Positions 1-30,300 of a stretch of 64,000 bases of DNA are shown one piece after another. The first letter of the stretch is position 1; each line of letters opens with the position of its first letter. The DNA is from Amphiscolops sp. MND2022 (lineage: Eukaryota): the NCBI GenBank assembly GCA_964187785.1, contig OZ076409.1, forward strand, positions 20,524,001 through 20,588,000, read 5' to 3'. The notes under the pieces are model-generated. The model ran no database searches. It had not been told where the DNA came from and worked only from the letters and a program-made list of their open reading frames with translations. The position numbers were made by a program, and so were the translations under genes.

Positions 1-90
1 AACTTCAGTTCGAGGTCAGAGGAATTGTAAATTAATTTTTTTCCGCTCTCATCCTTCTGCGCTTAAAAGTTTCTTTGTACAAATGCTGGC

Positions 91-573
91 TTGTTTGACA
101 AAAATGTGAAAAACTTTCAGATCTTCGAGGACGAAAATGGGGCCTACTTTCTGGAAGAAGATCAGAAGTTCAAGTCAATCGCACAATTGATCGAATTCTA
201 TCGCAAAACCAATCTATCAACTGTCTTCTCGGACGATATCGATGCATATCTCTCTCACCCTCTGGCTGACATCTGCTATGACCTCATCCGTGAGTACGCG
301 GCTGCCAAGGAAGTGAACTCCTCTTTGGAAGTGTCCAACGACGTCCTTCACCCTGTGGGGGGAGCCATTCTTCTCAAAACTGTGACTGTCTCTGATGTGA
401 ATGGTGGCGATTACGTCAACTTGAAGCAAGGACAGCTGGTCTTCATCTCTAATGAAACCGAAGATTCTTTCGAATGCACAACAGTTCTCTCCCCATCTGC
501 TCCTGTTTTGACTGTGTCTCAAACTGATGTGAGAATCATAACGGCCTACGGCGTTTTTGGTGACGAGTCTTGA
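91..573 (+). CDS. 3' terminal exon of an SH2-domain protein (C-terminal half of SH2 followed by a degenerate SH3-like segment); true exon start is upstream/approximate
   Basis: VKNFQIFEDENGAYFLEEDQKFKSIAQLIEFYRKTNL...LSHPL matches the SH2 betaD-alphaB-betaG pattern; DYVNLKQGQLVFISNETEDSFEC resembles an SH3 core. In-frame TAA at 64-66 implies an upstream intron. TGA at 571-573 is followed by AT-rich UTR-like sequence. Confidence 0.7.
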   Translation: MFDKNVKNFQIFEDENGAYFLEEDQKFKSIAQLIEFYRKTNLSTVFSDDIDAYLSHPLADICYDLIREYAAAKEVNSSLEVSNDVLHPVGGAILLKTVTVSDVNGGDYVNLKQGQLVFISNETEDSFECTTVLSPSAPVLTVSQTDVRIITAYGVFGDES

Positions 574-6030: not shown

Positions 6031-6983
6031 TGTTTCTACATGCAAAACCGGTTAAGTGGCCCTCTAATACACGGTTTGCTTTCTCTTCCAGACCGATAAG
6101 GAAGAATTGCGGCGAGTTCTTCTTTTTCAATATTTTAACGATATCACACCATATCTGCACGTATAACCCATTGAACATTGCTGAAACCCTTGTTTATTGA
6201 TTTCTTGTGTTATATGCCTCTTAGACATTTTCTTAATATTCTCAGATTTTATCATATTATTCTGTTATTTGTGGAGGTAAAATTTTGTTTGTTTCTGTAA
6301 ACGTCCTATTTATTTGATGTATAGTAAAGTAATTATTATTCAAACTGTTCTTTTCATTTGGAAAAGATTTTTACAGCTTTTCAAAAGTAACGAGACAACC
6401 TCCTGAAGAAGGCAAATAGCCAAAGTTGCAATAGAGACGAGATTTCTTAGTCACACTCACCCCCATCGTCTCTGATCGAGTTGATCCGTCCTTTCTTTCG
6501 GAGTTTATAAACATTTATGTAGATACTCTACCAGTTCTTGTCTCGTGCATGGTAGCTACTGATTTAATTGAGCTGTAGTGGAGCTATTCTCAATAAACAG
6601 TTAAAGCTACTGGAAAATATAAAATCTTACAAATCAGATAAGAGAGTACAAGATTTGTCCTCTTCGTGAGATAATACTAGATATGTTTCTGAAAATGCCG
6701 TAATTCACAAATATGTTGAGTGGTAAAACTTCTCAATTTTTTGTTCGATTTCAAAAAAATAGTTGTAATTTTGATTGAAATCTGAAGAATTTTCACTCCT
6801 GCATTTTCAAATTAGGAATGAAAAGTTTTTGCTTTCTGAAGTCGTCCGTTTGCAAATTGGAGTGTCGTCAGCTTTTTGGTACTCCAGTGCATGACGGCAC
6901 AAAATTATCGATACAATGCGTAAGAAAGGGAAAAAAGTTTTCTCCAATGATTTTATGCAAAACTGTTTTTTTTTCTTCCCAGC

Positions 6984-8477
6984 TGTCACAACCTAGAGCT
7001 TGTTTCGGACCCGTAGAGCAGCGATAGAGGCAAATGACTCGCCCATCTACTATTTCAAACTGAAGAAAACTCATCACTTCTTGAAACTTGCTTTGCATGA
7101 ATTCATATATGACTTTTATACACCAGCATTATTTGAATTTGTTTGCTATTCTAGTTAACTGTACTTGTAAAATAATATCCATTCATAAACAATTCACTAA
7201 ATGTTGCAAGGTGTTAAAATATTTGATGTATAATACCGCTCAACACAGTTTGTAGTGAAATGAATAAATTATACATGACTTGTATGATGCATTAATACGT
7301 AAGGACTTTAATATTTGAATTAATCTGCCGCACTAAGTTTGAAGCATACTGCAGTACATTATCGTCTTTTTCAACTCTTCAACTATATCTTTTAGATGTA
7401 TGACTCATTACCTTGACGTAATCACATGTGCTAAACTATGTGGAAATTAATACTTGCACTACATATGAGTCATACTACGTGTTGCCACATTTTTCTCATT
7501 AACGTTGAACGGATTAGTACAGTTAGTGTGATGACCAATCAAAACGCAGGAAAATATTTGTCATGCAGGAACCCATTTATAGAAGTGATGTAACTTACAT
7601 ACCTATTTTTATATCAGATTGGGTACTATTTTCAGTAATTACATAATCGTGATGTAACCGTGACATTCCAAAAATTGTCATGCTGCTAAATTTAGCGCAA
7701 ATCAAAAAGGAGAGTAAGAAGCCCAATAATATTCATTCAACAGAAAACTTTCAGACTGATTAGACTTTCCTTTCCATCCTCACAACCTTTGTTTCAACTT
7801 TGATAACTCAACATTATGCGCATTTTCTTCAACTTTATTTCAACCTAATTTTACTTTGCTTATCATTCTAATTGAAATTCTTCTCTCCAAAACAGCATTT
7901 TACCCTGACTAAAATGGGTAACAAAAGAAATAGAAGGTCTAGACGAGGACAATCACCCTCACTTGAGAGAGAGTTGAGCACATCCGAAATAGAAACATCA
8001 CAAGGTAATGAAACCGTTATTGAATTTTTAAGTAACTTTGAAAATGTTAGTTCAGTTAGGAACGAAGAAATAGCTCTAGACAGTGGAACACAAAATGAAA
8101 ATGAAATGCAAATTTGAACCCAAAGAATATCATATAAAACGAACAAAGAAGTAGCGAACTTAAGGAAAGAAATGGATTAGAAGCTAGAGAAAATACTGAG
8201 AGAGATGAAAAATAGCAGAAGAACACAATCCGTACCAAACAGACGATATCGAGAACAAAACACCCCCAAAGCATGACCTCAAAGTACGCAAGTTATGAGG
8301 ACGGTGAAGAAAACGCATCTGAGCCAGAAAATCAAAAATGTGGATTACAGGATAATCTTTTCAGGCCATCTAATTCAAACGAACTTAGAACGCCAATACA
8401 ACCTTTGAGCATGCAAAACATTGATCTGAATGACTCTGTGGTTGTGAATGAGGATCGCACAGGAGAGGATTATCACA
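6984..8477 (+). repeat. 5' LTR (1494 bp)
   Basis: Starts TGTCACAACCTAGAGC, ends GAGGATTATCACA; colinear with 21082-22578. Confidence 0.95.
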
Positions 8478-8490
8478 TGGTGACAGGAGC
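8478..8490 (+). promoter_or_regulatory. Primer-binding site-like sequence TGGTGACAGGAGC
   Basis: Abuts the 5' LTR terminal CA and begins TGG (complement of tRNA CCA); resembles the tRNA-Leu type PBS TGGTGTCAGGAG with one mismatch. Confidence 0.65.
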
Positions 8491-9584
8491 TACCAAACCA
8501 CTTCATCGTCAAAACTCAAACAACACAACAACAACACACAATGAACATCTGATTGCTGAACCACTTAATACTCAGCAAGACTCCGTTAACCAAATGGCAA
8601 TGGCTATTGAGAAACTGGCAAGCCGCAACACACAACCATCACTTTTTCACCCGAAAAATACCCTTTTATTTATTGGTAAATTTAAAAAGAACGAGAAATT
8701 TGAATATTTTGAAGATCTTTTCCACACAACACTTCGAATGCAACCCGCATTAAATGAGGAAATGAAAATAAATCATTTTCACGCACATTTGCGTGGATTA
8801 GCATTGAAAACATTCAAAAACATCCAACGAACACCAACAACTACGCTTGAAGACATACTGGTAGTGTTTCGGAGAAAATATGTCAAGCCCGAATCTAGTG
8901 CGTCCGCAAAACATAGATTTCATCGCTTGGTTTTTGACCCGGAACACCAGAAACTACCAGAGTTCTTAGAAGAATTACAAGAAAGCGCCGAAAAAGCCTT
9001 CGGTGACGTTGCATCACAAAAGATAGAAAGCTATTAAATGCAAAAAAGCCACCACACTTGAAACATTCTATTAATCAAGCCTACCTTGAGAATGGAACAT
9101 ACGAGCAAATAGTCCGACAGCTCGAACGGGAGATGGAATTAAACGGACTTGAATCAGAAGACACTGGAATTAAAACGCAAATGACGGTAATAAACAAACA
9201 AGCAGAAGTCAAACCAACGCAGCAGAAAACGGCAACAACAAAAAAGAAGCAACAAACACCAAAAACGGTGCCCAACAAAACATTGCAAGATGACCAATGT
9301 CGTTATTGTAAAAACACAGGGCACAAGGCAGCAGACTGCGCTAAACTAGCAAAACGTCATAAGCTGGAAGAAGACCTGACCTTGATGCCATACGCTGTAC
9401 GCATTGTAACGCACCAGGACATGAGGAACCAACATGCTACTTCGGAGCAAATATGGAAAATCGCCCCTCGAAGTGGACACTAATCGAAGCACAGAAAAAA
9501 CAAATTGTAATTTGAAAATTACAAAAACTCCAATAAATACATTAACCCGAAAGCACCCCGTCAACAACGTTTATCATTGAAAGA

Positions 9585-9591
9585 TTTAAAC
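9585..9591 (+). promoter_or_regulatory. Putative -1 ribosomal frameshift heptamer T TTA AAC at the gag stop
   Basis: X XXY YYZ heptamer in gag phase (gaT TTA AAC TAA); the -1 frame is open from 9591 and in frame with the 9732-9950 ORF. Confidence 0.7.
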
Positions 9592-12500
9592 TAATACAGC
9601 CACGCCCCACAAAATTAGAGGAGAAAGATGACTGGCAGCATCCAACTCCTCACCCAATAAAAACAAACACTTTCACACAACACACTGACTCTCAGACTCC
9701 AGGAACTCAACAAAACGAATCAGAGGACGATTTGTATGAAATATACAGAGACGCTCCTGACAGATACATAGCCACAAATCTTGACAGAAGTAACGGAAAA
9801 ATACCAGAAGATCTGTTTGAATCCGAACACGAAACCTCACCACAAAAATTACCAGAACCTCTTCCTAAAGACAATTTTGAACCTCTCCAAACACAAGACC
9901 CATCTGAATACCAACCGAACCTGCATCAACACAAAATTTACCCCTCATAGATGACGAAATTCAAAATCATCTCACAATTAATAAAGAAACAGATATACCA
10001 ATGCTTCTTCTATCAACCAACCTGACACTCAAAAGCAAACGCCATATGTATTACTTTCCAATGGAGTTTGAAAAGCTTACACTTGACGGCCTAATTGATA
10101 CTGGAGTTCTCAAGAGTGCAATATTGGAACAAGATCTAAATAAAATCAAACTCCTTGCGCCCGAAGCAATAACAGACACAGGTCCTGCACCCAATTTTCA
10201 AATAATGGTAGCAAACGGACGATTGGAAACGCCAATTCGAACAGTCTGCCTAGCATTTGAAGTGGCAGATTTTATAATCAAAGAAAATTTCATCGTCATG
10301 AAAGTCTTACCGAATCCTCTAATCGGACTTTGTTTCTTAAAGAGGAACAATTCCATTTTCGACATGCGACAAGGAGTATTAACTTTCCCCCATTTATCAA
10401 TGCAACTGAAATCAGAACGCAATCTTCCAACACGACAATCAACACCATTACTTGCAGAAGCAACATACACACTGCAACCGGGTGAAACCATGCTTATTGC
10501 GAGCAGAACGCCACACTTTATCGATCATGACGCAACAGGCATAGTAACGTCATCAACGCACCTTGAAGATCATGACACACTTTTCCTTGTATCCTCCCTC
10601 TGCACAGTCAACAATAACGCAGTAGGATACCAGATCTGCACTTTCTCAGAACCGACTTTCGAGTTTTAACCCTAGAACAGTTGAAATATATCAAACCAAT
10701 CAATCCTTCAGTGCTAACATTCATTATGCATCAACATACCGAAGTTACGGATGTATACCTCAATGAACTTCTGAAAGTAAACAACAAAGAAGACAAAACA
10801 GAACAATACTGGTTTCCAACACCGGAACAACCCGGAGACCCCACAACAAACACACTTATTCAGAAATGAATATTTGATGAACTAGTAGAACTTCAAACAC
10901 TAGAAAAACTTAACCCACAAGACGACGAACAATCACGCAAAACATTCCTTGACAATTTTGATTGGAGCGACACAACACTTACTCTTTTCGAACGACAGAA
11001 AGTGGAAGAACTGCTGGTCGAATTCCATGATATCTTTGCTCGACACAGATTTGACATTGGAACAAATAGGGAAGTCAAAGTCAAACTCACACCAAACGAT
11101 GACCGACCAGCATATAGCCAAAGTCTTCCAACCCCGATCAACCTAAAAGACGACATCACGGTGGAACTTGCCCTACTTCACATGTATGGTATAATAACAA
11201 CTCTACCCTTCTCTAAGTATGCAAGTCCCATTTTTGCGCAACGAAAACCTAACGGTCGACTACGGCTCTTAGTCGACTTGCGCAAAATAAATAATCTTAT
11301 TTCTGAAGACTACGTAAACAACAACCACCCAGTCAGTACACTTTCCGATGCAGCCCAACATATCGCAGGAAAGAAATTTTTCTGTTAATTTGACTGTTCA
11401 CAAGCATACCACTGCCTTCAGATGGCAGACTACCAATCAATCCGAATGTTGGCCTTTAACTTTGCTTGCAGAACCTTTGCGTATCGGCCTTAGCCGATCA
11501 CTATCAGCATTCTCCAGTTTCATACGGGAATACTTAGACACCCTCATCAAAGCAGACCAATGCGCCCAATACGCCGATGACATCGGAATTGCAGCAAACA
11601 CAGTGACACAACTGTGTATAAACATCCGAGCAGTCTTTGAATGTATACGGAACGCAGGACTGAAATTGTCAATGTCAAAATGCCATTTTGGAGTGACAAA
11701 AGTCGACTTCCTGGGAAGAACAATCACACCTGAAGGAGTTTCTCCCCAATTAGACAAAGTCAAAGATTTCTTAGCGAAACTTAATTTCCCCAAATCCAAA
11801 AAAGGCCTTCAAATGTATATTGGTTTTCTGAATTATTACAGAAATTATATACCACGCCTTTCGGAACGACTCACCCTTTTCTTCAAACTACTGAAGGAAA
11901 CCAGCAAATTCTACATTTCTACCGAACTTACAAGCAAATTTGAACAGTTAAACAACCTCCTCCTTCAATCTTGCCAAATGGCACTCAAACAACCACTTAA
12001 AGACAAACAACTAATCGTCATGTCAGAAGCCAGTTTTACAGCTGCAGGATATGCGATTGTGATTGAAGACGACACTCTACAATCGAAACGCAAAACATAC
12101 GCCCCATAAGCATTTGGCTCAAAAACTTTCAACCCAACCCAATTAAAAATGTCAATGAATGCGAAAGAGTTTTAGCTATTTTCTTCGCATTCTCAGAATT
12201 TGGACACCTAATGTGGAGTAGTGCTTTTCCCGTAAATGTTATTACCGACAACCGAGCAGTCACCAGATTTTCCCAAACAAAAATCATTCCCCAGCACTAT
12301 GGAACGCATGCGACTACGTCCTGCAGTACAATTTCGTCATAGCACATGTAGAAGGAGCAATGAATACGGCTGCAGACTTCTTGTCGCGAACGGAAATCAA
12401 CCCGACAGAAAAACTAGAAATGAATTTACGCAACGACATACAAACAAAAGCTATCGAGGTTATTATCCAATCCTCTGGCATAGCCAAAGAAGAACAAATT

Positions 12501-14471
12501 TACATCCACCCAGACGATGAAAATGATGAAAAAACACTTTGGGAACAAAAAGATAATATCAGAAATCAAGCACAAACAGAAATGTACAATGAACCGGAAA
12601 ATGAAATAACTGAATTACAAAATTTCCATAAACCAACTGCCGGAACAATAGGTTATTGGGAAGGACACTTTCGAGACAACGCAAAAATCCGACTCGAACA
12701 AAATAATGACCCAGTCCTTCGCAAGCTCAGAGCAAAAATAGAGGGTGAACGTTCTGATGAATCAGCGTTCACGCAAGACAATCGATACCAACATTACCTA
12801 CAAAAAATGCCCCGCATCGAAATCTGCCAAGACATTCTTGTACGAAATTACTACAATGATATTGGACAAATCTCACACTACCAAATACTATTACCGAAAC
12901 AGCTTCTCGAAGAGTTCCTACAGGCATTGCATGGACACAATGCAAATCATCCTGGAGTAACAAAAATGATAGAAGAAGCGCGACAGAAATACTATTACCC
13001 ATGCTTAGCAAAACACATCAAAAATTGGGTACAAAACTGCCAAATGTGCATTCAAAACAAAAGAATCAATAACGATTTACTGAAAACAGAACTTCTAAAT
13101 TGTCCAGAATGGGACCTCGGTCCAGAAGATTTTCTTCAGATGGACATTTTACCTAATCTCCCAGCAAGTGAAGGTTTTGATAACATCATAACAGCAATCG
13201 ATGTCTTCTCAAGATATTTATTTGCTTATCCAACAACCCGAATTACAGCCCCTACAGTTGCAAGAGTCATTATGGACATTTCGTGCAAACACAGACATTT
13301 ACCAACGACCATAATAACTGACATGGGCACTCAATTCAACTCACAAATCACCCGAGAAGTAGCAGCAGTGCTTGGAGTTGAACTAAACATGCTTCGACAA
13401 AACATGCACAAACAATCGGCATGCTAGAACGCACTCACGCTACAGTAAAAACACATTTGAAAGCAACTACAGGTGAATTTCGCAATAATTGGCACAAATT
13501 CCTACCACTGGCTGTCTTGAACCACAACAGAACCTATCATGCCAGCTTAGGATGTGAACCCACCCGTGTTTTCCACGGCAGGATATCACATAACATCCTA
13601 GAATACAAGCTAGGCTATAATCCTAACCCACGGTGGACTCCGCAGACTGACATTGCAGAAGAAATACAACGCAGAATGGAGATACTCAATGACCAAACCA
13701 AAAAGTCATACCAAACAAAAAGTCAAACTCATGCAGTCATACTTAAAATATAAGGCATACTATGACCGCAAGGCAAAATCAGCACCGCTTACTACAACAG
13801 ACTATTGCTACATAATGAACCCGAAGGCAGACACACAAGCAACGAAAATTCCGTTCCGAGAATTCCGTTGGATAGGTCCCTATAAAGTTGAAAAAGTCCT
13901 ACCTAACAATAACTACATTGTACGAAGGCTAGGGACAAACAAAACACAACTGTTACACCGAATACGTTTGAGGAAATAATCACCTAGTGCACCACTAGCC
14001 GATATATTTGTCAGAGAAACCGATTGGCAAAAAGATGACAACATAATAGTAACACACGATGAACTCTATGCCCATACATGGGATACAAATTTTGGTACAG
14101 ATCCATTTGACACAAAACGTTCTGATAACGAACAAGATGACATACAAGAATATGTCCCGATAAACCACCTACCCTCCCTCGAAATTTCAAAAAACAGTGG
14201 GGGAGCTCCGGAAGAACAAACTACTGTTCCTAATGAAGAAACCCTACACGAAAATGCAGAAAATGAAATCGATACAAATGATAATCAGCAAGATATACAA
14301 CCTAACCCTACTATTGATGCAGAAAAATTCCCGGAAAATGAAGACGAAAATCAAGAAACGTTGAGGTGTAAAAAGAAAAACCCCCTATAAAGAAAAACCA
14401 ATACCCGTGGTGAAAAATACAATTTACGACCCAACCCAAATCCTAACTTCTCAGACTCCTACCGATATTAA
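9591..14471 (+). pseudogene. pol: pol polyprotein: aspartic protease, reverse transcriptase, RNase H, integrase; multiple stops and frameshifts
   Basis: PR: LIDTG. RT: SPIFAQRKPNGRLRLLVDLRKIN, YADD, KCHFG...FLG. RH: LIVMSEASFTAAGY. IN: H-x5-H...CQMC, LQMDIL, IITDMGTQF, GMLERTH, WIGPYKV. Tail ends YNLRPNPNPNFSDSYRY* at 14469-14471. Confidence 0.95.
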
Positions 14472-14618
14472 AAACAAAAATTAATACAAATTCAACTCCC
14501 TAGCTTCCTGTTAAACAATCAACAAAAATCAAGAAAAGAAGCAATGAAAACTGCAGAAAAGTTGTAGCCTATATTGAGCCATTGGCTTAAACGAAGTTTG
14601 ACTAAATCCGACGATTTG

Positions 14619-17600
14619 CTAATGCATAGCTGGTTTTCCTTTCTTGTGCTTCTTCTTATCACCAGCGGAAGAAACAGCAGAAGTTGAGGCAGTCAGGAAG
14701 GGAAGTTTAATCAAACTACGAACAGCTGGAGCAACAGCGGAATCTGCAGTAACTGGCTTTTTGGTCTTATCTGGAGACGATTTCTCAGAAGACTTCTCTG
14801 GAGAAGAATTCACTGAAAAAGACTCTACAGGGGAACTAGCATTACTACTAATACGGCTAGAGCAAAGCCTGGGTTCTTTCTCTGCAGTAATCCAAGTACA
14901 ACTGTCAACAGCAACATTTTTGGCGTAACAGGACCCCAAAGTAGACAGCAAGCCAATCTTCGAACATGAGTCGAACTCAGGAGATTCCACACTGAGAACT
15001 TGCGTTTGAGAAGTAGCCCAGGCCCTTGGTTAAGGAGATCGTGTGCACGAGGAAGTGCAGCTGCAGATAAGAAAAGACTCTCTACCTTTTGAATGGAACT
15101 GAGGGAACACTGAAGGCTCCTCACGCAGGAAGAGAATTCGATTTTACTAGATTTTAAGCCAGGCAAAAATACAATAAACTGTGGAGGTGAGCAGCAAGGG
15201 TTTCTGAGCGTTTCACAACAAACTTTAAAGAGGCGTAACAATTCCACCCTGCATTGAAGTTCATAGTAGCAGGAAATGAAACTGACCCATTCCTTCGAGC
15301 TAGAAACTTTGTCTGCACGGAATTTGGTGACGAGAGAACAGTACTCGCTCACTACAACAGGTTTTACATGGAAGGAGATCCATCGCTGTTGGACGAAGTA
15401 TCCGGCAAGGGTTTGGTTAGAGTCTTCATACTGCGCCTCCTCTCCATAACGAATCACAGCTTCATCAAACGACGATAGCCCACGAGCAAATGAAGATGTA
15501 GCAATTTCACAGGAAAGCAACAGTTTGATAAAATAACGGTAGAATGATATGGCCTGCTCAGCGAATTTCCGTGGGGTAGGGATCTTGCTCCTATATAGCA
15601 TATCGGAGAGGTCTTTGTCCTGCAGAAATTCATCAACTGTCTTGATAGGCAAAGTGACTTCACTCATGTTTAGTTGGATGTAATTGTCCCAATTGCTGAT
15701 GCTCCCAAGGAAGGAAGTAGGGAAGATGGTTTGCATCTGTGTGTACACAAAGACACAGAACTGGTTGTAGATACGAAACCCTCCAGCTACACTCGCGTCC
15801 ACTTCCTTGAAAGTTGAATTGTCTAGAACAAGAAACTTATGAAGTGTGATATGAAACTATTACGGAACCACCAAAACAGAAAAATTTTGTGCAATACATT
15901 GAAACCTACTTTGGAAATGACGCTTGAAGCAAAACAATTAAAGAGGAATACTAACATTGGCTCAAAATGTTGCGGATGAAAAACAGTCGTACAACCAGCA
16001 CACGATCCTTGATGATGATATCATCCATCCCAGATGGCTGAAAGGAAACCAAAAATTATATAAAACCCATGTGCAGAATACCCAATAAGGAAGGAAATAA
16101 GAAGAGAAACCTCTTGGATATGAGAACGATATGCAGTCACTCTCTTGCTGTTCCGCACATGGGAAGTGACGCGTTCCCAGTTCTGAATTAGTTGATCGAG
16201 AATCTCAACAGCTTGTATCAGGTCATAGTCAAGATTGAACGCCAGCTGTTACAACACAAAAATTTTGACTTCTATTACATAACAACATGAAGCGAAAATG
16301 TGCAGGTGCCAAAATCAAAGAAACAGTCGAACACAAGTATTCACGTGCAGAAATTTGAAACAAATATCGTATAGTGACTCATTCTTTACAAACTGCTAAA
16401 CTACGTAATCATGAAAAATTTTCGAAAAATCAGTTGAGAAGACCAATTGCGCCACATTATGCCGCAAGCTTGGATTTGCAACAAAGAGAAATTTGCAAAG
16501 TGTCATATGCGAAAGGAAAATTCTTTTTTCCTAAAAGGAAAGGAATCTTCACAAGAAAGAGAATTGTGAACCAAAGGCATAATAGCCGTGTTTACACAAA
16601 AATAAAATTTTGTCACCAAGCAGACATTTCTACAAAATGTTTGGAAAACGAAATACAAAAGATAAACCTTTTCAAAATTTGGAAGGGACGATAGCCAGGA
16701 GCTTCCACAAGCGGATCTCAGTCGAAGAAGCAGGAAATCCAGAACACTTCTGAAGTCAAGCCTGTCAAGAATTTGGGCTGTGGGGACGCGCAGAAGCTCT
16801 CTAAATCCTCAGGACCGATTTTTGGCGTACGACAGATCCTTTTGTGCTGGGGTAGGACCCGGGAAATTGTCCAAGCAAGACGCCGAGAAAATCCAGACAA
16901 GAAAATCAGATGTACCTCTTTGTCCAGCAGAGCGAAGAAACTGCTAATAATTGGGATCAAAGCAGACTGGTTTGTTAGTCGGCCGGGAAGAACGGCTAAA
17001 CACATGCTGTGTAATGAATTTCCAGACCAGAAATTCACAAAGAGCATCGTTTCTTGTGCCGTGAATGCCAATCGGAGGGAGTAAATGTCCGAGGACTCAA
17101 TCGAAGTGATGCTGTATGATAGGAGCTCGCGAAACATGTGAGCTAGGAGCGCCTTCAAAGAGACCACCCTTTTGAAATACCTAGAATTTTTACAGGCAAA
17201 AACGACTACCAAAACAACTTACCAAGATCCTGTGTGGCCTCCAATCGTGAGTAGAAACGGATTCTGAAGTCCTTGTCTCCGTGATCAGGTCATGCCGGAG
17301 GGCGATCAGAGAATCCAAATGTCCGCCATGCCGGAATCCGAACTTGAGTAGGGTCAATTGTGACAAAGTCTCCTTGTCGGGATTATCTGGTTCCGTTTTT
17401 TCTGGCAGTTCTTGCTGGTCAACTCGGAGGTAATAGTCGCCAAGCTTGGGGGCAATCGGGTATTCCCGTTTGGCTCTCTCCTTCGCGTATTTTAAGGCCA
17501 TTCCACTAAATTCTGTGCACTGTTAATCGAATAGTGCAAGCCCGGGAGTCCCCATACGGATTCTGTGTTTCCGTACTAGGTGTACATCAGTCCGACAGTG

Positions 17601-18964
17601 TCGTAACATTTCCAAAGGACCTTTGGTCTTAAGAGAAAGTTCTACCATACAAACGCGAGAACGGTACTTATTTGGATGGCGGGCCGCATCAGAAGGTGCT
17701 GTGGCAAAGAACCTGAGGGTGAGGTACTTATCGTACATCCATTCGGCGAGCATATGTTGAGGCTTAGCCCGTTTTCTGGCTGGACTACTTTTCTTCTCTG
17801 CCTTGCGCTTCCTGAGAGGCTTCTCGGGGGTAGCGACAAACTCTTCAGTAGAAGACATCTCCAGATCGGAATCGGTGCTACTGTCCGAACTTGAATCGGA
17901 TGGCCGACAATTGTCTCCAACCACAACTGGTGGCCTTGCTGTGGTAATAGCCTCAGTCGCGGGGCGCCCTTCTTGCCCGCTGTTTTCCCCGGTTTTAGCA
18001 GAATCTGCAATCATTAATGTGGAGTTGAGTCGAATCTGTTTATTAGCAGCTTCTTCTGCCGCTTCAGCTAACAGTCTCTCTAAACGAGCTGCCCCAGTGT
18101 CTTGGGGGTAAGAATTTTTGAGACACTTTGGCTCCGAGGTAACAGCACACGTGTTGTTTTTCCCTTGTTCCTTAGGTGGATCAGTCGTTTTAATTAGATA
18201 CCTGGTAAAAGGGGATCCTTTGGCTGAAACTTGAGTGTTCCCAGTCTGGGTTGTCAGAATGTCCTTATCCTTACAGTGCACGAACTTTGTAGAAACGGTG
18301 TCAAGAGGTGTTGACGGACTTGCTGGCATTCTGCTTATAGGAGCGTTAGTAACTTCCGTTACTTCAGGCGCGTCGTCTTTTTCAGTTGTTTCAATCTGAA
18401 TATCCCCAGCTGTATCTGCTTGTTTCCCACTTATTGAAACACAGTCTGGTGAATCAACGGCATCCACAAGCTCGTCAAAATTATCTTTCAGTAGAACTAG
18501 AGGAACAAATGCTGGAGGGAGGTCTTCCTTATCAAGGGAAAATGGGGGATTATAGCCGCATTCGAGCAGAGTTCTTTGGATTCTAGCAGATTTTCGCGGC
18601 TCAGAACATTCGGCACTGCGTTTTGTTTGTGTAGCTCAGTTAGAACCTGAAATAAAATTTGGAATGGAAAAATGCTAGAAACCAAGTCAGGAAGTTAGCG
18701 TTTCCGTTCAAAAAACTTAAAGACAAGAATTTGATAAATCGGAAAGATATGTTAACGGAAATATGAGTCTGGCCAACTCGTATTCAAAAATCCGAGACGT
18801 CTCAAAAACGCAAGAAAGCAACAATAATACACAAAGAAAGTAAACTCAAGCTTACCTGTCAAAATACCTGCAGTGTTTGATGGTTGATCCTGGGAAGTCG
18901 AAGCTGTCCTCTTCTATTTCGAAGCTTTGCGACGCCGATTGGAAGTGCTTCTTGAACGAACCAT
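14619..18964 (-). pseudogene. Six-exon antisense gene inside the retrotransposon, ~1150 codons: low-complexity N-terminus, C2H2/BED-like finger, hAT-transposase-like body lacking recognisable catalytic residues. Exons 18964-18856, 18646-17223, 17152-16668, 16245-16111, 16037-15956, 15822-14619
   Basis: ATG at 18964 (MVRSRSTSNRRRK). Five GT-AG introns with compatible phases (1,0,0,0,1) join the listed ORFs. Finger Y-R-[S]-R-V-C...H-CRTDV-H. hAT-like segments: SIESSDIYSL, ILDQLIQNWERV, LFFIRNILSQYNSTFKE, FYRYFIKLL...LSSFD, ELLRLFKVC. Three in-frame stops and two 1-nt frameshifts indicate decay. Confidence 0.8.
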
Positions 18965-19311
18965 GATATGAAGAATTGACAATGGAAAAGGCGTAACTAA
19001 TTACCAATTAAAACTAATAATGAGTTGAATGAAAATTAAAAAACTATGAGGTATAGACAGAAGTCGGAAAGCGGGCAGCAAGGAAATGTTGATTGAGAAC
19101 ACTGTGAAACTGTAGAAATCGACTTTGGACTACGAAACTTTCCAAACAAACAAAATTATATATGGGGTGGCTTCCGGCTGAATAAAACACAATTTGCATA
19201 TTTGCGCAATTGCTCGATGCTGGTTGGCTGAAATAGTTTGAAACCAATCACGCCTGCCAGCGAGATTGGTATTTAGAACTGTACAGCTTAGTGCGTTTAC
19301 ATACACATGAT

Positions 19312-19331
19312 GCGCCGCCCCCTAGTGGCGG
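19312..19331 (-). promoter_or_regulatory. CTCF-like motif in the divergent intergenic region of the element
   Basis: Minus strand reads CCGCCACTAGGGGGCGGCGC, close to the CTCF core CCAC(T/C)AG(G/A)GGGCGC; CCAAT boxes at ~19244 (+) and ~19265 (-). Confidence 0.45.
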
Positions 19332-19977
19332 AATGAGAAAATGAACGAAACTGCTTACATCTTGCAGTACAACGCAAGACGATGTTTGACCTAAAACAAT
19401 TGCCATCACATAACCCTATGCATCATTTGGATACCATGAGATAATGCGTATCCCAGAAGCAGACAACATGAAGCAGAAAACTTGAGATGGACATGTTTCC
19501 TTTCTGAAAACTTAATGTCTATGAGTATCCTGAAATATATTTGTATTAGGACATTAGTTCCGTTGATGATATCAATTCCAATTAAAATTACATGTAAGTA
19601 TTCATAAAATCTGCAAAATTCAAAAAACAAAAATTGAGTTGTTAAAATTCGTCATGCAAATTTTCATTTAGACTTGTTTACAAGTGATTATAGTGTCTCT
19701 GTGATCTTGAATGGGAAAATAACACCTCTATCTACCATATATGGAAATTTTGAAGATAAATTTCGATTTGTTTTGGAGCTATTCAAATAAAGTTGAAACA
19801 CATTCTAACGCTCACCCTGAAAATTACCGGGAAAGGGGTGAACAAAGAAGAAGATGACTCGACAAACTACCACCGTATTTGGGAAACCCGGGGAAATGCC
19901 CATCGACAGAAAAGAAGTGAGAGATTTTTATTCTGCAAATATTCACGAAACGGAGCAGTTGATAATTTCAAACTCAA

Positions 19978-21125
19978 ATGGACAACAGACCTCCAAAAAA
20001 TTCTCACCTCTTCACAATCGATGAAGATATGCAATCTGTCTCAACAAACTCCCCCGGACTTATAAACATCTCGAGCGATTCTGGGGAAGAGTTTCTGACT
20101 GAACAACCTAATTCGGAACCTATAGACTTAGGATTCAGAATCGGAGGGCCCATTAACGATCCTATGACTGCATTCGTAAATGAAAACGCTGCAAGTCTTT
20201 TTGCAGTGAGTGAGCCCGAATCCAGAGAAGATTTGGTAATTGACATAACAGGAACCGATATCGAGAGGGAAATGCTGAGTATGATTTCTGAGAACACTGA
20301 ACTGCCTAACATCTCGCCAATCTCATTTTTTGAATCAAGCGGAAGCAATAGCAAAGAGCTGTTGTTAAACGCCAACTTCGCGAATGTTCCTAGAAACAAT
20401 TATGGCAGACCTGTGCTAGCCGTTCCACTTATAAGAGGTGAGAGGTTACCGAGGCAAAGACCTTCACAACCTGATACTGGCAACAACAACCTCCCTGTTT
20501 TCACCCAAAGAAATGGGCCAATTAGACCTGTACCCATTACTCCAGTGGTTATTCCACAAAAGATTCCGCAACCTAATTATGTTCGTATGTATAATGTGGA
20601 GGGATATTGCAGACGCCGGTAATAAACCAGTATAATATGCCAGCTGCTCATTTTCATTTGCCGAATCCAGCTACTCTAGACATGGTACATATCCCATACA
20701 ATTCAAATGCAGAAATACTACAACCCAGTGGGCCTGGAAATGTTGCTTACTAAAATAACGCCGAGGGACACTTGTATCTTGACACCCAGGGAACCCATAG
20801 CAACTTGGAAACGACCAATGTGGGTCCTGTACACGGTGACAGCGCTAGTCAGCAACAAAGAAACCTTCCACGAAGGCAACTTAACCCTCCGGTTATGCCG
20901 CACGTGCAAGGAAATTGTCATTGGTGTGACAGGACTTACGATGAAGTCGCCCTAGATGCTCTGGCAGCCTCTACTACTGCGACGGAATACCCCGGCGAAA
21001 CAGTGCGAGATCGGAACATCAGGTCACGGGCTTATCTAGATAAGTTCGAGGCAGCACTCATTTGCTTCAAGAATGCTGGCCTGTCACAGCCTAGAGCTTG
21101 TGTCGGACCCGTAGAGCAGCGATAG
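19978..21125 (+). pseudogene. Orphan 3' ORF (~380 codons, one frameshift near 20595 and one stop near 20751) ending 44 nt inside the 3' LTR
   Basis: ORF 19978-20622 continues in the frame of ORF 20772-21125 (GGILQTPVINQYNMPAAHF...). Acidic, Pro/Asn-rich N-terminus; C-terminal CHWC motif and helical segment ending AGL|SQPRACVGPVEQR*. Confidence 0.7.
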
Positions 21126-22578
21126 AGGCAAATGACTCGCCCATCTACTATTTCAAAGTGGAGAAAACTCATCACTTCTTGAAACTTGCTTTGCATGAAT
21201 TCAAATATGACTTTTATACACCAGCATTTTTTGAATTTGTTTGCTATTCTAGTTAACTGTACTTGTAAAATAATATCCATTCATAAACAATTAACTGAAT
21301 GTTGCAAGGTGTTAACATTATTGATGTATAATACCGCTCAACACAATTTGTAGTGAAATGGATAAAATATACATGACTTGTATGATGTAATAATACGTAA
21401 GGACTTTAATATTTGAATTAATCTGCCGCACTAAGTTTGCAGCATACTGCAGTACAATATCGTATTTTTCAAGTCTTCAACTATATTTTTTAGATGTATG
21501 ACTCATTACGTTCACGTAATCATATGTGCTACACTATGTTGAAATTAATACTTGCACTACATATAAGTCATACTACGTGTTGCCACATTTTTCTCATTAA
21601 CGATGAACGGATTAGTACAGTTAGTGCGAAGACCAATCGAAACGCAGGAAAACCTTTGTCATGCAGGAATCTATTTATAAAAGTGATGTAACTTACCTAC
21701 CTATATTTATATCAGATTGGGTACTATTTTTAGTAATTACATAATCGTGATGTAACCGTAACATTCCAAAATTGGTTGTCATGCTGGTAAGTTTAGCCCA
21801 AATCAAAAAGGAGAGTAAAAAACCCAATAATATTCATTCAACAGAAAACTCTCAGACTGATTAGACCTTTCTTTTCATCCTCACAACCTTTGTTTCAACT
21901 TTGATAACTCAACATTATGCGCATTTTCTTCAACTTTATTTCAACCTAATTTCACTTTGCTTATCATTCTAATTGAAATTCTTCTCTCCAAAACAGCATT
22001 TAACCTGACTAAATTGGGTAACAAAAGAAATAGAAGGTCTAGACGAGGACAATCACCCTCACTTGAGAGAGAGTTGAGCACATCCGAAATAGAAACATCA
22101 CAAGGTAATGAAACCGTTATTGAAACTTTAAGTAACTTTGAAAATGTTAGTTCAGTTAGGAACGAAGAAATAGCTCTAGACAGTGGAACACAAAATGAAA
22201 ATGAAATGCAAATTTGAACCCAAAGAATATCAGATAAAACGAACAAAGAAGTAGCGAACTTAAGGAAAGAAATGGATTAGAAGCTAGAGAAAATACTGAG
22301 AGAGATGAAAAATAGCAGAAGAACACAATCCGTACCAAACAGACGATATCGAGAACAAAACACCCCCAAAGCAGGGACCTCAAAGTACGCAAGTAATGAG
22401 GACGGTGATGAAAACGCATCTGAGCCAGAAAATCAAGAATGTGGAATACAGGATAATGCTTTCAGGCCATCTAATTTAAACGAACTTGGAACACCAATAC
22501 AACCTTTGAGCATGCAAAACATTGATCTGAATGACTCTGTGGTTATAAATGAGGATCGCACAGGAGAGGATTATCACA
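21082..22578 (+). repeat. 3' LTR (1497 bp)
   Basis: Starts TGTCACAGCCTAGAGC, ends GAGGATTATCACA followed by TSD CCAGC; contains a second copy of the gag N-terminus (ATG changed to TTG at 22014). Confidence 0.95.
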
Positions 22579-23896
22579 CCAGCGATACTGTGGAAAGAAA
22601 AATGCTATTATTTCAAAAGATCGCTCCTTGTTTGAGGACATGGACATCTCTGATGTAACAAACCTTGGAATTTCATGTAAAAATATGAACTTTGGATTGA
22701 TTCAATGATTTATCATCATTTGCAAATATAACGAGCATGCTTCCTAATGTCCTCAGTACACTCAATAACTAACTTTGGCAAATACCGTCAGCAACGCACT
22801 TCCAAACCTGTAGTGATGAGTTTTCATTCATTTTCGGAAACCACACTGTCACTTGTGTGGAGGCTGCTGAAAGTTCAAGAAACGTATTTTTTCCATTCAA
22901 ATGTTTCTGCTCCGCAAGCGTATTATAACAGGCACGGACGATTTTGGAAACGTGACAATGGGAATCGATTAGGCATCTAAATCGAAGAGACAATTTAAGA
23001 AAAGTATTCTAGAAATTTTGATTGTAAATTGTCAGTGCCAAGATAGTGAAGTGATACTTGCAGTCTTTTAGTGTTAGATTACTACTGAAAGCACTGCTCG
23101 AAGCTGAGACTTTTTGAAACCAACAATTGCAAAAATATCACGCGATTTTAAACGCACTGGAAATTCCAAACATTTTTTTCTTATTACTGGAAACTAGGAC
23201 CTTGGTGAATTTTCGAACAGACTGGGATTGTTTTTGGATTCAGCCGATTTTATAACTCGCAGACTTCTCTGAAATGATGGATGAAGCAAGTAAGAAGGCA
23301 TTCAGTTTTCGTCAAAAATACCGGAAACTTTTGTCTCACATCGGAAAAAAACTTCAAAAATAGGTTGAAAGCAAATCAAACCACCTTACAGCAAGCAAAT
23401 ACATGCGGAACCAATATTTGTCAAAAGGAATTTCGAAACTTTATCAGCTTTCAATGGAATGCTTCATCTCCAAGTGCTTTCAGGCTATAATGGAATATTT
23501 CATGAGCATAGTTCAATTAAAACAAGCCGGGAACGGCATAAGTCGGCGCCATAACTAAGGCTCAAAAATAGCAATATGACTCAGTGTCAAAAGGACTTAG
23601 TGTCAAGTATTCTTTTACAGTACCCGAAAAACCCAAAAGTTGACCGAATTGGCGAACCGCCAATTTTCCAATTTCGATTTCCTCAAATATTCTTTACGGT
23701 TTGAAAGAACTTTTATGGTGTCTTTCTCCACCATATAAGGGCTTATAATGTACAATTTCATCAAAATCGTATGACTGAGATTCCAGCCAGTCAGAAGGAA
23801 AAAGACCTAAGCCGACTCCGTTACCGCTCACGCGGCTCTGGTTTGTTTTCTACTCCGAGTTATCTCTTCAACTTGCCATAAGTAAATATTAGTGTC

Positions 23897-24343
23897 AACA
23901 AGCCGGGACCGGCCCAAGTCGGCACCATATCTAAGGCTCAAAAATAGCAAAAGGACTTCAAAGTGTCAAAATATTCTCTTCTACAGTACCTGAAAAACCC
24001 AAAAAGTTGGGCCATTGGCGCGCTAAAAGGGGGGACCGTTTCGCATTTTTCAACATGCATTGTTGCAAAACATCAAAAAATTGAAGGGGAAATCTTTTTG
24101 GGGAAAAAGTCTAACAATGCCGAAAAAAACTGAAAGGGGGACTCTTCAGTCTCTCCTGGTGTGGTATGTTACGCGGAAAAAGAGGAAAAACTTTTTTGGT
24201 TCAGTTCGCTAGGCCAAATGATTCAATTTGGGACCATAAAAGTTCGTAGAACGTTTAAGAACTATTTTGGTCAGTTCGTGTAGATTGAAAAAAAAGAGTC
24301 ACTATAATAGTCGCGTTTCACTTCAAGAAGCGCCGACTAAAAA
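23897..24343 (-). mobile_element. Helentron/HINE-like non-autonomous element, family A
   Basis: Ends AACAAGCCGGGACCGGCCCAAGTCGGCACC... and ...AAGCGCCGACTAAAAA; subterminal inverted repeat plus terminal hairpin. Confidence 0.7.
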
Positions 24344-24576
24344 CAAATTTCGGCGTTAACCAGATTTAAGTCGAAGACTGTTTACTCAAACAAGTACGTG
24401 AAGCATGCTAGTACTGTTATATACAAGGGTACCAGAAGGTTGGAAACACTCGTATTCGCTAACAAAAAATTTTAAACGCAATAAATCATTCGACAAGAAA
24501 GTGAAAAGCAAAAAAATTTCGTTTTGAGCAGATGGTCTTTTTTAAAGATGGTTTGGGAGGGCTATCTCAAAGATAC

Positions 24577-27391: not shown

Positions 27392-30300
27392 CCGAATGCT
27401 GAATTCTCACGAATAGTTCCCGAGAAAAAAACAGCATTGTTTGGAAGGGTCCACTCTTTCTAACTTGGACAAAGTTGTTCGAACAAGACGCCCGCTGACC
27501 AGCAGGATATATTCCGCAGAGACTGTTCAAGCTATGACATATTTTTAAGACTCAAGCCATTGCACCATGAAAACGCATAGAGGTTTGATAAAAAAGGTTT
27601 GACACTAATATCATGCCATTTCAGAAGGAACCACTTCAAAAAAACACTAAACATCTATTTGTATTTTCTGTCGGCTTGTGTGTATATCAAAACTTAACCA
27701 AACTATTTTTCTTGACACTTGCGCGAAGTCGTCCAAAACGTCAAAATTAGGAAAATTTTGCTTTTTGCACAATTTTGCGGTCATTTGAGGACCTTTTAAG
27801 AACTTGTACATGTATTTTTAAAATTGCCTATTTGTTACCGGGTCCAGTTTTTCTTGCAATACAAAAGTGTTCGAAAGGTTTACAAAAAGTATATCAACTT
27901 TTGAAACACAAAAAAAATGAATTTTCAACATATTTTAAGTCGTTTCGACGAATGTTTTGCAAAAAAAATTGTAAATTTCCCCTTGTCAACATTCTGCATG
28001 CCTATTCAAAAAGCTTAGACTTTTAGAAGACTACAAAGTTTTGGTAAATTTCATTTAAAAATTCAATTATTTGTCAAACAACTGAAAAAAAATGCTTTTT
28101 TTTCGACTATCTGAGTCATTTCGAGGCTCTTTCTAAACGTGAAACTGCAATTGACATTCATAAAGACTGAATAACGCATATTTTCGCTGTTGAACGTTTT
28201 CATTCTTCCAACGATGGAAACTTCTCAAAAAATTCAGAACTTTGCAATAGAAACGTTGAACTGGACTTTTTTCATATCCGATTCAACAGGGTCATTTTTG
28301 AAGTGATTTTCAAGCAAAATACCGGAATTCTCCTGAAAATAGCATACTGCATAGCTAGTTTGTTTTTGAGTGTTTTGAATCCTCTCAGTCACAAAAACGT
28401 CCAAAAATTGTACGCAAACTGCCGGAAAAACTACAACTTTTTTTGATGCAAAACACTGTAATTTTCTCATCAAGAAAAGAAACTAAATGCCTGATTCTAT
28501 TGCCTTTGATAGTTCTAAACGTTCTTACACACAAAAATTCTCAACAATTGCACTCAAAGAACATGAAGAAGCTACATTAACTGGAAATTTTTTGACTTTT
28601 CGACTCTTTTTGTGGCAAACTAAAGCACAATTTTATCAGGAACTGCACTTTCCGATCAAAAATCCTACTGGAAAACGCCTTCAGTTGTTGTTTACCAGTT
28701 TCAGAGTTTTACTTTATGAGAACGTTGAAAATGTAACAAAAGTTGCATTGGAAGAGAATGTAAACAAAAGTAAGTTTTGTGATTTCTTTGGGATCATTGT
28801 AGAATTTTTGAATTAAAAATGCTTTTATTTCCCCTAAAAACCCCTATTGGACAACGAATTTATTTGTTGTGGAACGTATTCAACGTTCTGATCCTTGAAA
28901 TTATTTAGAAATTGGGAAAAAGTTGCATGAAAACATGGGCAAACGGTTCATTTTGGAGTTTTTGTAATTTTTGGTCGCATTTTGAGAATCTTTTTTTTTC
29001 TAGAAAACTTCTTTATTTCTGAACAGAAGCATCCCGGGCACCGAATTCGTTCCTTGTTGAACGTCCTCTACAGTCTAGGTCATCAGGTCTTTCAAAAAAT
29101 AGACCAAAAGTTGAAAGAAATTTTCAAAAATCTGCATTTTTTGATGTTTTTGTCAATTTCGGTCTGAACTTGAGGCATTTTCGAAATCAATTGATTTTTT
29201 TATCTATTCAAAAAAGCCTTTCGGACAACGAATCTTTTCTTTGTTGAACGTCTTTGATAATCTAAGCCACCGAGTCTTTCGGAAAAAAGACAAACATTGC
29301 ATGAAACTTTAAAAATCTCAATTTTCAGGGAATTTTGTCAATTTCGGTCTGAATTCGAGGCATTTTCCCAGTACAAATTGCATTTATCTTTTTGAAGAAG
29401 CCTCTTGGACACTAAATTCTTTCCTTCTTGAACGTTTTTATTTTTCTAAGCTAGCATGTGTAACAAACATTTGGCAAAATTTGCAGAGAAACGTTAAATT
29501 TCTGAACTTTCTGTATTTTTTTTTCAATTTTGATCTCAATTTGAGACATTTTTTCATTGCAAAATGGCAATTATTTCTTCAAAAAGGACTCTTAGATAGC
29601 GAAATTTTTTCCTTTCGAACGTTTTCAACTTTTAAAGCCACGAAATCTATCGAAAATTTGAAAAAAATTGCATAAAAACAGTAAAATGTGGAAAATTTTG
29701 CAGTTTTTACTTTTTTGGGCTCATTTTTAGGTCATTCTTGGGTCTTTGCGGTCAACCAAAAAGTCCAAAAAACCTCTACAAATACTTATCACATGATACT
29801 AATTTTACGTCGGTTGAGTTTTATTGGTGAAACCCTTTAGCTTGGAAATAAATTTGGTGCTTGGCAAATTTTGTAAAAAAACCTCTTTTGATTTAATTAT
29901 TTTCCTTTTCTATATAAATTATGGACGGAAAATTATAAAAGAGATTTGAGGTTAGTTTTGGCACTGTGTGACCCCGGGTTTCCCTCCAATACAAAAACTA
30001 ATTGATCATACTCTGGACCATAAAAGTTCCAGATTGATCATGGTAAGATCATAGAAAAATTTTTGTATGATTTGTATGGTACCATATTTGATCAGAGCAT
30101 GAGCAACCTGGTCAGGAAACCCGGAACGTTTTGGAGAGAAAGTAGTTTTGCCAGCTGAAAGCTCCTTTTTCGGCACTAAAGGGCTTTTTGGATGGATTTT
30201 TTGTGTTTCCGGTTGGGTAAAAAGTGGTTGCCAAGTCTTATGCGTATCCCTTGGGGTATTTATGGACTGAGATATTGATAAAAGGTAAGAAATCGTGATC

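What the first reader, a model, noticed from the sequence alone, without database searches (positions are those of the whole stretch)
6984..22578. Complex 15.6 kb Gypsy element with four coding units, virus-like organisation
Seen within one LTR pair and one TSD: gag (starting in the LTR), -1 frameshift, pol, a convergent spliced antisense gene, a divergent promoter region, and a sense orphan ORF ending in the LTR. About 6.6 kb lies between the pol stop and the 3' LTR, with no env-like signal or TM segment. Established: animal Gypsy elements usually carry gag, pol and sometimes env; antisense extra ORFs are mainly known from plant Tat/Retand-type elements. Inference: a retrotransposon lineage with its own accessory-gene cassette.
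Basis: partly seen in the sequence, partly recalled or inferred. Interest (0 to 1): 0.85.

Follow-up and report, generated by a model that had tools for sequence, protein, structure and literature searches.

The report
Retrotransposon carrying a dead transposase gene
A large family of animal retrotransposons carries, backwards, a conserved gene with six predicted exons whose protein is predicted to be a disabled cut-and-paste transposase, and it likely uses this protein to bind a DNA motif repeated in its own control regions and keep itself switched on.

Summary
One LTR pair (95% identical) and a 5-bp TSD enclose gag (starting in the LTR), pol in the -1 frame, an antisense spliced gene and a sense ORF ending in the 3' LTR. 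The window copy is a decayed relic, but the cassette is not a one-off. All 14 diverged loci sampled (20-70% protein identity) carry it against pol. Splice sites are conserved, one allele lacks an intron exactly, and both extra genes are under purifying selection.

New here: the ~1,150-aa antisense protein has a CxxC...HxxxxxH finger, a predicted RNase H fold (top Foldseek hit Hermes hAT transposase) and a helical part weakly matching Hermes, in Hermes order, without conserved catalytic acids. Sequence profiles do not detect the link. The gene is swapped as a module between near-identical gag-pol backbones. A ~24-bp motif sits in the LTR and the long intron, where it is the best-conserved stretch, and forms arrays in one clade.

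Best reading: a dead transposase recruited as the element's own DNA-binding regulator, like plant VANC/TnpA. Binding, expression and function are untested.

The parts
6979..6983 (.). 5' target-site duplication CCAGC (second copy at 22579-22583)
   Evidence: a 5-bp TSD in 14 of 15 copies checked
6984..8477 (+). 5' LTR, 1494 bp; its last ~560 bp code for the gag N-terminus
   Evidence: LTR-encoded gag part free of stops in 10 of 11 copies, pN well below pS
7335..7358 (-). Bipartite ~24-bp motif in U3 of the 5' LTR
7914..9594 (+). gag (556 aa in unbroken copies; weak Ty3_capsid and zf-CCHC hits); broken here by stops and frameshifts
8478..8489 (+). Primer-binding site, 12 nt complementary to the 3' end of a host tRNA-Leu(CAA) plus CCA; lies inside the gag frame
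9585..9591 (+). Slippery heptamer TTTAAAC directly before the gag stop (predicted -1 frameshift site)
   Evidence: heptamer plus stop found in 26 of 31 copies scanned
9546..14471 (+). pol, order PR-RT-RNase H-integrase (1652-codon open frame in two other copies); broken here by at least 12 stops and several frameshifts
14619..15822 (-). Antisense gene exon 6: helical region weakly matching Hermes 368-604, then a Ser/Lys-rich tail; one frameshift here
15956..16037 (-). Antisense gene exon 5; the intron after it is absent in 6 other copies
16111..16245 (-). Antisense gene exon 4
16448..16471 (+). Copy of the bipartite motif inside intron 3 (3 mismatches in this copy)
16668..17152 (-). Antisense gene exon 3: predicted RNase H-like fold without conserved catalytic acids; one frameshift here
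17223..18646 (-). Antisense gene exon 2: variable low-complexity N-part, basic stretch, CxxC...HxxxxxH finger; one stop here
18856..18964 (-). Antisense gene exon 1 (ATG at 18964, Arg/Lys-rich); one stop here; intron 1 checked by eye in this copy and one other
18965..19977 (.). Non-coding spacer between the two divergent start codons (inferred bidirectional promoter; TATA-like at 19157, CCAAT-like at 19244 and 19265)
   Evidence: holds motif arrays in other clades
19978..21125 (+). Sense ORF D (379 aa from ATG in an unbroken copy): acidic/Pro/Asn-rich, conserved C-terminal ~80 aa with CxxC; covers the PPT position and stops 44 bp into the 3' LTR; frameshift and stop here
21067..21081 (+). Position of the polypurine tract: only 8 of 15 purines, coding for ORF D
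21082..22578 (+). 3' LTR, 1497 bp, with the motif at 21433-21456 (-)

Best explanation
This is a decayed copy of a Ty3/Gypsy clade whose unit carries a conserved antisense gene with six predicted exons, predicted to encode a catalytically dead hAT-like transposase that likely binds a motif repeated in the element's own LTR, intron and promoter and would act as its self-specific activator or anti-silencer. Shown: the architecture, its conservation, purifying selection, modular exchange of the gene between backbones, and the conserved or amplified motif. Inferred: (1) splicing, with the antisense orientation letting introns survive reverse transcription of the sense genomic RNA; (2) transposase origin, from predicted folds; (3) loss of catalysis; (4) binding to the motif; (5) an activating effect; (6) exchange by template switching between co-packaged RNAs. 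ORF D is a second accessory protein from the same divergent promoter; its role is the least constrained.
For: Architecture in 14 of 14 diverged loci. GT at 104 of 107 donors and AG at 105 of 108 acceptors located for introns 2-5 in 30 copies; intron 5 missing precisely in 6 copies. dN/dS 0.04-0.28 for exons 2C, 3 and 6 where pS is not saturated. Exon 3 model (pLDDT 73): helix plus RNase H topology, Foldseek ranks 1 and 3 of 350,542 chains are Hermes (E 1.6e-3 and 4.3e-3); VIA Z 6.2, rmsd 3.4, 103 aligned, Hermes 153-264. Exon 6 model: Hermes rank 2 of 48,161, Z 4.9, 168 aligned, chain 368-604. Finger region: ESM Atlas neighbours at 0.90-0.91 include GTF2IRD2-, SPIN-DOC- and FAM200-like clusters, which I recall as hAT-derived. 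The three parts follow Hermes order. No conserved acid at the strand ends. Module exchange: copies c5 and d3 differ by pS 0.105 in RT but 0.83 in exon 6; AU tests reject three of four cross-module groupings. Motif in U3 of 18 of 20 and in the long intron of 18 of 20 elements, against 0.35 per shuffled element; it is the best local match in at least 14 of 15 pairs of otherwise unalignable introns. TATGCGG occurs 89 times in 28 kb of non-coding DNA, once in 52 kb coding and never in 19 kb flank in one clade. Precedent: VANC motif arrays in introns and non-coding regions (PMC5735166, passages); TnpA derived from a transposase (bioRxiv 2026.08.24.746577, abstract and one section).
Against: No sequence-level link to hAT: Pfam has no hAT family for any exon, PDB profile searches are blank, HMMs score the genome's hAT ORFs no better than reversed controls, and hhalign gives at best E 0.067 while a reversed control reached 0.075; a second, longer template lost even that. 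No Foldseek hit reaches E 0.001. For exon 3, Argonaute, integrases and actin-like folds tie with Hermes in Z. The exon 6 match has rmsd 9.7, its last third has pLDDT under 50, and Foldseek missed it. The Atlas recognition score (2248) is under its 2300 mark. The motif was defined after seeing these sequences, copies are related, and a host factor could be its reader. Swapped alleles keep the same motif, so specificity does not explain allele diversity. CpG o/e 0.79-0.94 and a 34:34 transition:transversion ratio between the LTRs give no sign of methylation-type silencing. The deepest clade showed its array in the promoter, not in introns.
Confidence: 0.45

Rival explanations
1. Same dead-transposase origin, but the protein acts on the cDNA or at integration: it binds the motif in the LTR ends to scaffold, import or target the pre-integration complex, not to regulate transcription.
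For: The motif lies in both LTRs; the protein has basic stretches at both ends; hAT transposases are recalled to bind subterminal repeats as oligomers.
Against: Arrays also build up in an intron and the internal promoter, far from the ends. The TSDs show no obvious target consensus (by eye).
Confidence: 0.17
2. The motif is read by a host transcription factor; the antisense protein does something else, such as interfering with host silencing proteins or excluding competing elements.
For: Alleles are far older than their backbones yet share one motif, which suits frequency-dependent selection against a host defence. The deepest clade's repeat contains a GACGTCA core, recalled as CRE-like.
Against: The finger is conserved down to 20-25% identity, and the motif variant differs between deep clades, as expected if reader and site evolve together.
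Confidence: 0.2
3. The protein is not hAT-derived: its RNase H-like domain comes from another source (Mutator/IS256-type transposase, PIWI domain, integrase or a host gene).
For: Z-scores tie across RNase H folds, with Argonaute 6.9, integrases 6.3-6.8 and ISCth4 5.6 over 100 residues; no sequence support for hAT.
Against: Among the leading rows only the Hermes and ISCth4 transposases align from the first helix. Hermes recurs independently for exon 6, and the finger region points to FAM200/GTF2IRD2-like clusters.
Confidence: 0.16
4. One-off nested DNA transposon or passively carried host fragment.
For: The transposase-like fold fits an ancient nested insertion as the origin.
Against: Fixed position and orientation in 14 of 14 diverged loci and purifying selection; no inverted repeat around the gene among the internal repeats listed.
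Confidence: 0.02

Closest known systems
Plant Retand/Tat elements (Grande, RIRE2, Retand) with antisense TRP28 ORFs (PMC11963269, PMC7264820; passages read)
   Same: Gypsy element with a 3-6.6 kb pol-to-3'LTR region, a conserved antisense ORF for a predicted DNA-binding protein, and often tandem repeats.
   Different: Animal host; six-exon ~1,150-aa gene; no PF04195 hit; fold match to a solved transposase; extra sense ORF ending in the LTR. The review says the origin of most plant antisense ORFs is unknown.
Botrytis Boty/BcGypsy1 brtn (cited in PMC8365987; passages and reference title seen, original not read)
   Same: Additional antisense gene in a Ty3/Gypsy element.
   Different: Fungal; earlier scan notes (unchecked) describe such genes as small Zn2Cys6-like proteins, unlike this protein.
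Arabidopsis VANDAL VANC and Spm TnpA (PMC5735166 passages; bioRxiv 10.64898/2026.08.24.746577 abstract, one section, passages)
   Same: Element-encoded regulator; short motif amplified in same-orientation arrays in introns and non-coding regions; TnpA derived from a transposase.
   Different: Those are plant DNA transposons. Here a retrotransposon would have taken the protein from another TE class; binding and activation are untested. The preprint's main text has no occurrence of 'retrotransposon' or 'LTR' as whole words.
Hermes hAT transposase (PDB 4d1q, 2bw3, 8edg)
   Same: Predicted finger, RNase H core and helical region in the same order.
   Different: No conserved DDE acids, no CxxH, no hATC Pfam hit, no TIRs, long disordered ends.
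Animal Gypsy elements with extra genes: bdelloid ORF3s (PMC5408684, abstract) and planarian Burro (PMC6431247, passages)
   Same: Animal LTR elements carrying non-standard accessory genes.
   Different: Those carry env, GDSL, DEDDy or apoptosis/ubiquitin domains; 'antisense' does not occur in the Burro review, and no transposase derivative is mentioned in what I read.
Complex retroviruses (HTLV-1 HBZ; foamy virus internal promoter; HIV nef overlapping U3; the last two recalled)
   Same: Antisense regulator, internal promoter, accessory ORF running into the 3' LTR.
   Different: No env; Gypsy-type pol; no homology shown.

Membership tests
Ty3/Gypsy LTR retrotransposon | LTR pair TG...CA, TSD, tRNA PBS | tested here: met
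Ty3/Gypsy LTR retrotransposon | pol order PR-RT-RH-IN | tested here: met
   (protease hit is under the Pfam cut-off)
Ty3/Gypsy LTR retrotransposon | Polypurine tract before the 3' LTR | tested here: inconclusive
   7-11 purines in the last 15 nt in 29 copies, 8 in the window
Ty3/Gypsy LTR retrotransposon | Named clade by RT phylogeny | not tested
   No named reference RTs were available; the 120 relatives listed carried no names
Env-bearing (errantivirus-like) element | env ORF with signal peptide and TM segment | tested here: not met
   Maximum hydropathy 1.39 in the extra proteins, no Pfam env hit
Retand/Tat | Antisense TRP28 (PF04195) ORF | tested here: not met
   No PF04195 in any exon scan
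hAT transposase (origin of antisense protein) | N-terminal BED/TTF-type finger | tested here: inconclusive
   CxxC...HxxxxxH conserved, Atlas neighbours 0.90-0.91, no Pfam hit
hAT transposase (origin of antisense protein) | RNase H-like core | tested here: met
   Predicted model and fold searches; the fold alone is not hAT-specific
hAT transposase (origin of antisense protein) | Helical insertion and C-terminal dimerisation region | tested here: inconclusive
   VIA Z 4.9, rmsd 9.7; hhalign E 0.067
Active hAT transposase | Conserved D-D-E and CxxH | tested here: not met
   No conserved acid at the strand 1 and strand 4 ends in 17 sequences, no CxxH; the third acid's position is poorly defined
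VANC/TnpA-type self-regulator | Motif arrays in the element's non-coding DNA | tested here: met
   Arrays in two clades, single conserved copies in the window's clade
VANC/TnpA-type self-regulator | Protein binds the motif and derepresses cognate copies | not testable with these tools
   Needs binding and expression assays

The most novel reading that the evidence does not exclude
An animal retrotransposon clade has domesticated a DNA transposon's transposase, stripped of catalysis, as its own sequence-specific anti-silencing factor, and shuffles it as an allelic module: a VANC/TnpA-like system built across TE classes, in an animal.
Probability: 0.38. Interest if true: 0.92.

Novelty: new variant of a known kind. 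Interest (0 to 1): 0.8.

Why it matters
Element-encoded, sequence-specific anti-silencing is documented in plant DNA transposons, and the origin of antisense retrotransposon genes is called unknown in the reviews read. This family offers a concrete origin (a transposase), a candidate target motif and natural allele swaps, so the question of whether animal retrotransposons encode their own counter-silencing factors becomes directly testable. It also shows a spliced gene persisting in a retroelement through antisense orientation, and an LTR element with coding sequence across both LTR junctions and no clear PPT. The family is abundant: the searches scored 130 and 95 matches for two clades, which are lower bounds.

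Tried and rejected
Complex prediction of exon 3 with exon 6 gave no verdict. A search for longer, spliced homologues found none among 6,792 candidates; the Atlas had no usable hit for exon 6; the metagenome scan found no relative. The profile search returned 322 unnamed relatives, with no Pfam family above cut-off in 18 scanned. DUF4371 rang nowhere in the genome, including the controls. Sequence-level hAT tests were negative. The exon 2 N-part query was out of frame and is ignored. One AU test did not reject (pol data, d3+d6+e7, p 0.29). The first three tRNA-pattern loci were tRNA 3' halves, not genes; a real tRNA-Leu gene came from an array. No strong hairpin lies close behind the slippery site; the conserved one starts about 26 nt downstream. 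ORF D has no Pfam match, and tblastn did not link it to the deepest clade's ORF at the same place. Ten literature searches (listings only unless cited) showed no description of this architecture or of a transposase-derived gene in an LTR element. Subscription papers, Repbase, Dfam, GyDB and all supplements were not seen, and the Burro primary paper was not held.
Full report
1. Observation. Self-comparison gives one long direct repeat, 6984-8477 and 21082-22578, 95.1% identical, ending TG...CA and flanked by CCAGC. Pfam finds capsid-like and zinc-knuckle traces, RT, RNase H and integrase on the plus strand, and nothing above cut-off for the frames between pol and the 3' LTR. Comparison with unbroken relatives places gag at 7914-9594, pol at 9546-14471, six antisense exons at 18964-14619 and ORF D at 19978-21125. 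It shows stops or frameshifts in all four units of this copy. The host is an animal, inferred from Cys-loop channel exons in the window.

2. Not a one-off. A 1.8-kb piece of the cassette gave 48 matches in the genome, 27 of them nearly full length at 80-100% identity. Exon 6 gave 130 scored matches down to 42%, and a distant relative gave another 95; these are lower bounds. I fetched 34 loci at 20 kb. All 14 chosen for divergence (ten at 43-70%, four at 21-24% in exon 6) have pol on the opposite strand just beyond the last exon; one is truncated by another insertion and one lacked a paired LTR in the stretch held. In three of the four deepest loci, where pol is only 44-53% identical, the LTR termini, the PBS, a gag start in the LTR and a divergent ORF ending inside the 3' LTR are all kept. 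Complete elements are 15.6-17.3 kb with 5-bp TSDs in 14 of 15 checked. LTR identities reach 99.5%, so the family was recently active.

3. Replication signals. The 12-nt PBS is complementary to a genomic tRNA-Leu(CAA) end plus CCA. TTTAAAC precedes the gag stop in 26 of 31 copies scanned. The LTR-encoded 188 gag codons are free of stops in 10 of 11 copies with pN well below pS. There is no clean PPT: ORF D codes across that position.

4. The antisense gene is real. For introns 2-5 in 30 copies (one tandem copy left out), 104 of 107 located donors are GT and 105 of 108 acceptors are AG at homologous positions, while intron lengths vary from about 65 to over 900 nt. Six copies lack intron 5 exactly and read through the predicted junction in frame. 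dN/dS is 0.04-0.28 for the conserved exons, and between alleles pN is about 0.2 with pS saturated. ORF D gives 0.10-0.30. The exons sum to about 1,150 aa. That introns survive because the genomic RNA is the opposite strand follows from how retrotransposons replicate; the exact intron loss is most simply explained by recombination with a spliced transcript (inference).

5. What the protein is. Pfam, PDB sequence search and the Atlas search for exon 6 were blank. The exon 3 model (pLDDT 73) has a helix, three strands, a helix, a strand and a helix. Foldseek ranks Hermes first and third (E 1.6e-3, 4.3e-3). VIA-align gives Hermes Z 6.2 over 103 residues, tied with Argonaute and integrases, which align 80-90 residues. 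The exon 6 model (pLDDT 59) has Hermes second of 48,161 at Z 4.9, the longest alignment listed, but with rmsd 9.7, and Foldseek missed it. The exon 2 finger has FAM200-, GTF2IRD2- and SPIN-DOC-like neighbours at 0.90-0.91, below a set of unnamed clusters at 0.94. Each signal is weak, but three separate parts point to the same family in the right order. Profile tests against 117 and 42 hAT proteins and against the genome's own hAT ORFs were not significant. No acid is conserved where Hermes has its first two catalytic aspartates (positions recalled); traces remain by eye in a few lineages. I put a DNA-transposase origin at about 0.8 and hAT at about 0.65.

6. Modular exchange. Along the element, copies c5 and d3 are 86-100% identical in gag-pol and 84-93% in ORF D, but 39-70% in the antisense gene and 62-67% in U3. 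Their synonymous difference is 0.105 in RT and 0.83-0.86 in the antisense exons. Trees of pol, the antisense gene and ORF D group the copies differently. AU tests reject three of four groupings carried over from another module (p 5.7e-5, 2.7e-5, 4e-4; the fourth 0.29), with groups named after seeing the trees and three copies left out. The window copy shares its antisense allele with c5 but carries the other ORF D type. Old alleles are therefore kept and reshuffled on homogenised backbones.

7. A cis-motif. In one clade TATGCGG occurs 89 times in 28,075 nt of non-coding DNA, once in 52,066 nt coding and never in 18,830 nt flank. It forms same-strand arrays with a period near 33 bp in U3, the long intron and (in four of five elements) the divergent promoter. 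In the window's clade a related bipartite ~24-mer is present once in U3 and once in intron 3. A degenerate pattern finds it in U3 of 18 of 20 and in the long intron of 18 of 20 elements, against 0.35 per shuffle and 2 in the other 48 kb of the window. It is the best local match in at least 14 of 15 pairs of unalignable introns. The long intron is number 5 in some lineages and number 3 in others, and the motif follows it. The deepest clade has a different repeat, four to five times in the promoter. The patterns were chosen after inspection and both LTRs were counted.

8. Mechanism. Most likely the spacer drives both extra genes; the antisense product goes to the nucleus, binds the motif as a catalytically dead transposase, and keeps the LTR and its own promoter active against host silencing. 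This parallels VANC (PMC5735166, passages) and TnpA (bioRxiv 2026.08.24.746577, abstract and one section). Against it: there are no binding or expression data, no sign of CpG decay, and exchanged alleles share a motif. The rivals are a role at integration, a host-read motif, or a different RNase H source. ORF D most plausibly is a cofactor with an acidic disordered region and a small Cys-containing domain (inference, low confidence).

9. Novelty. Antisense accessory genes in Gypsy elements are known from plants (PMC11963269, PMC7264820) and fungi (brtn, via PMC8365987), and extra ORFs from rotifers and planarians (PMC5408684, PMC6431247). Ten searches found no animal case with a spliced antisense gene, nor a transposase derivative in an LTR element; repeat databases and subscription papers were not seen. 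Verdict: a real and unusual new variant, interest 0.8.

Noticed in passing
window 40949-41404 (-) and 31777-32307 (-): Exons of a Cys-loop ligand-gated ion channel gene (Neur_chan_memb, E 1.5e-11 and 2.7e-4).
   Followed up: partly
window 67-573 (+): Exon with part of an SH2 domain (E 2e-5).
   Followed up: partly
window 33096-33781, 57685-58378, 59462-60114, 45689-46114, 23897-24345: A ~690-bp non-coding dispersed repeat family with internal ~60/116-bp units, 76-96% identical; probably non-autonomous transposons.
   Followed up: no
window 28815-29837, 42550-43748, 55181-55938: Degenerate AT-rich arrays with a period near 190 bp, 65-71% alike between sites.
   Followed up: no
G000:C8 about 35.59-35.65 Mb (L133): Long tandem array, mostly 296-bp period, holding intron-containing tRNA-Leu(CAA) genes; the pattern has 863 matches genome-wide.
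   Followed up: partly
L122-L124, about 1500-1560: Isolated 3' halves of tRNA-Leu including CCA, one partly duplicated; possibly primer copies left by other retroelements.
   Followed up: no
L023-L024 (G000:C3:27.47-27.49 Mb): Two elements in tandem, apparently sharing an LTR, 99.2% identical over 5.8 kb.
   Followed up: no
L065-L066 (copy e8): Internal duplication of exons 4-6 and the pol end, including the intron motif.
   Followed up: no
L059 (copy e5, intron 3): A ~79-bp tandem repeat of about 8 units carrying the motif, with related repeats in U3.
   Followed up: partly
pol, between protease and RT: Two related pol proteins carry a dUTPase Pfam hit (PF00692), suggesting a degenerate dUTPase-like region in this clade.
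   Followed up: no
L096-L101: Several diverse hAT transposase ORFs of 500-700 aa without stops in the same genome; none is detectably close to the antisense gene.
   Followed up: partly
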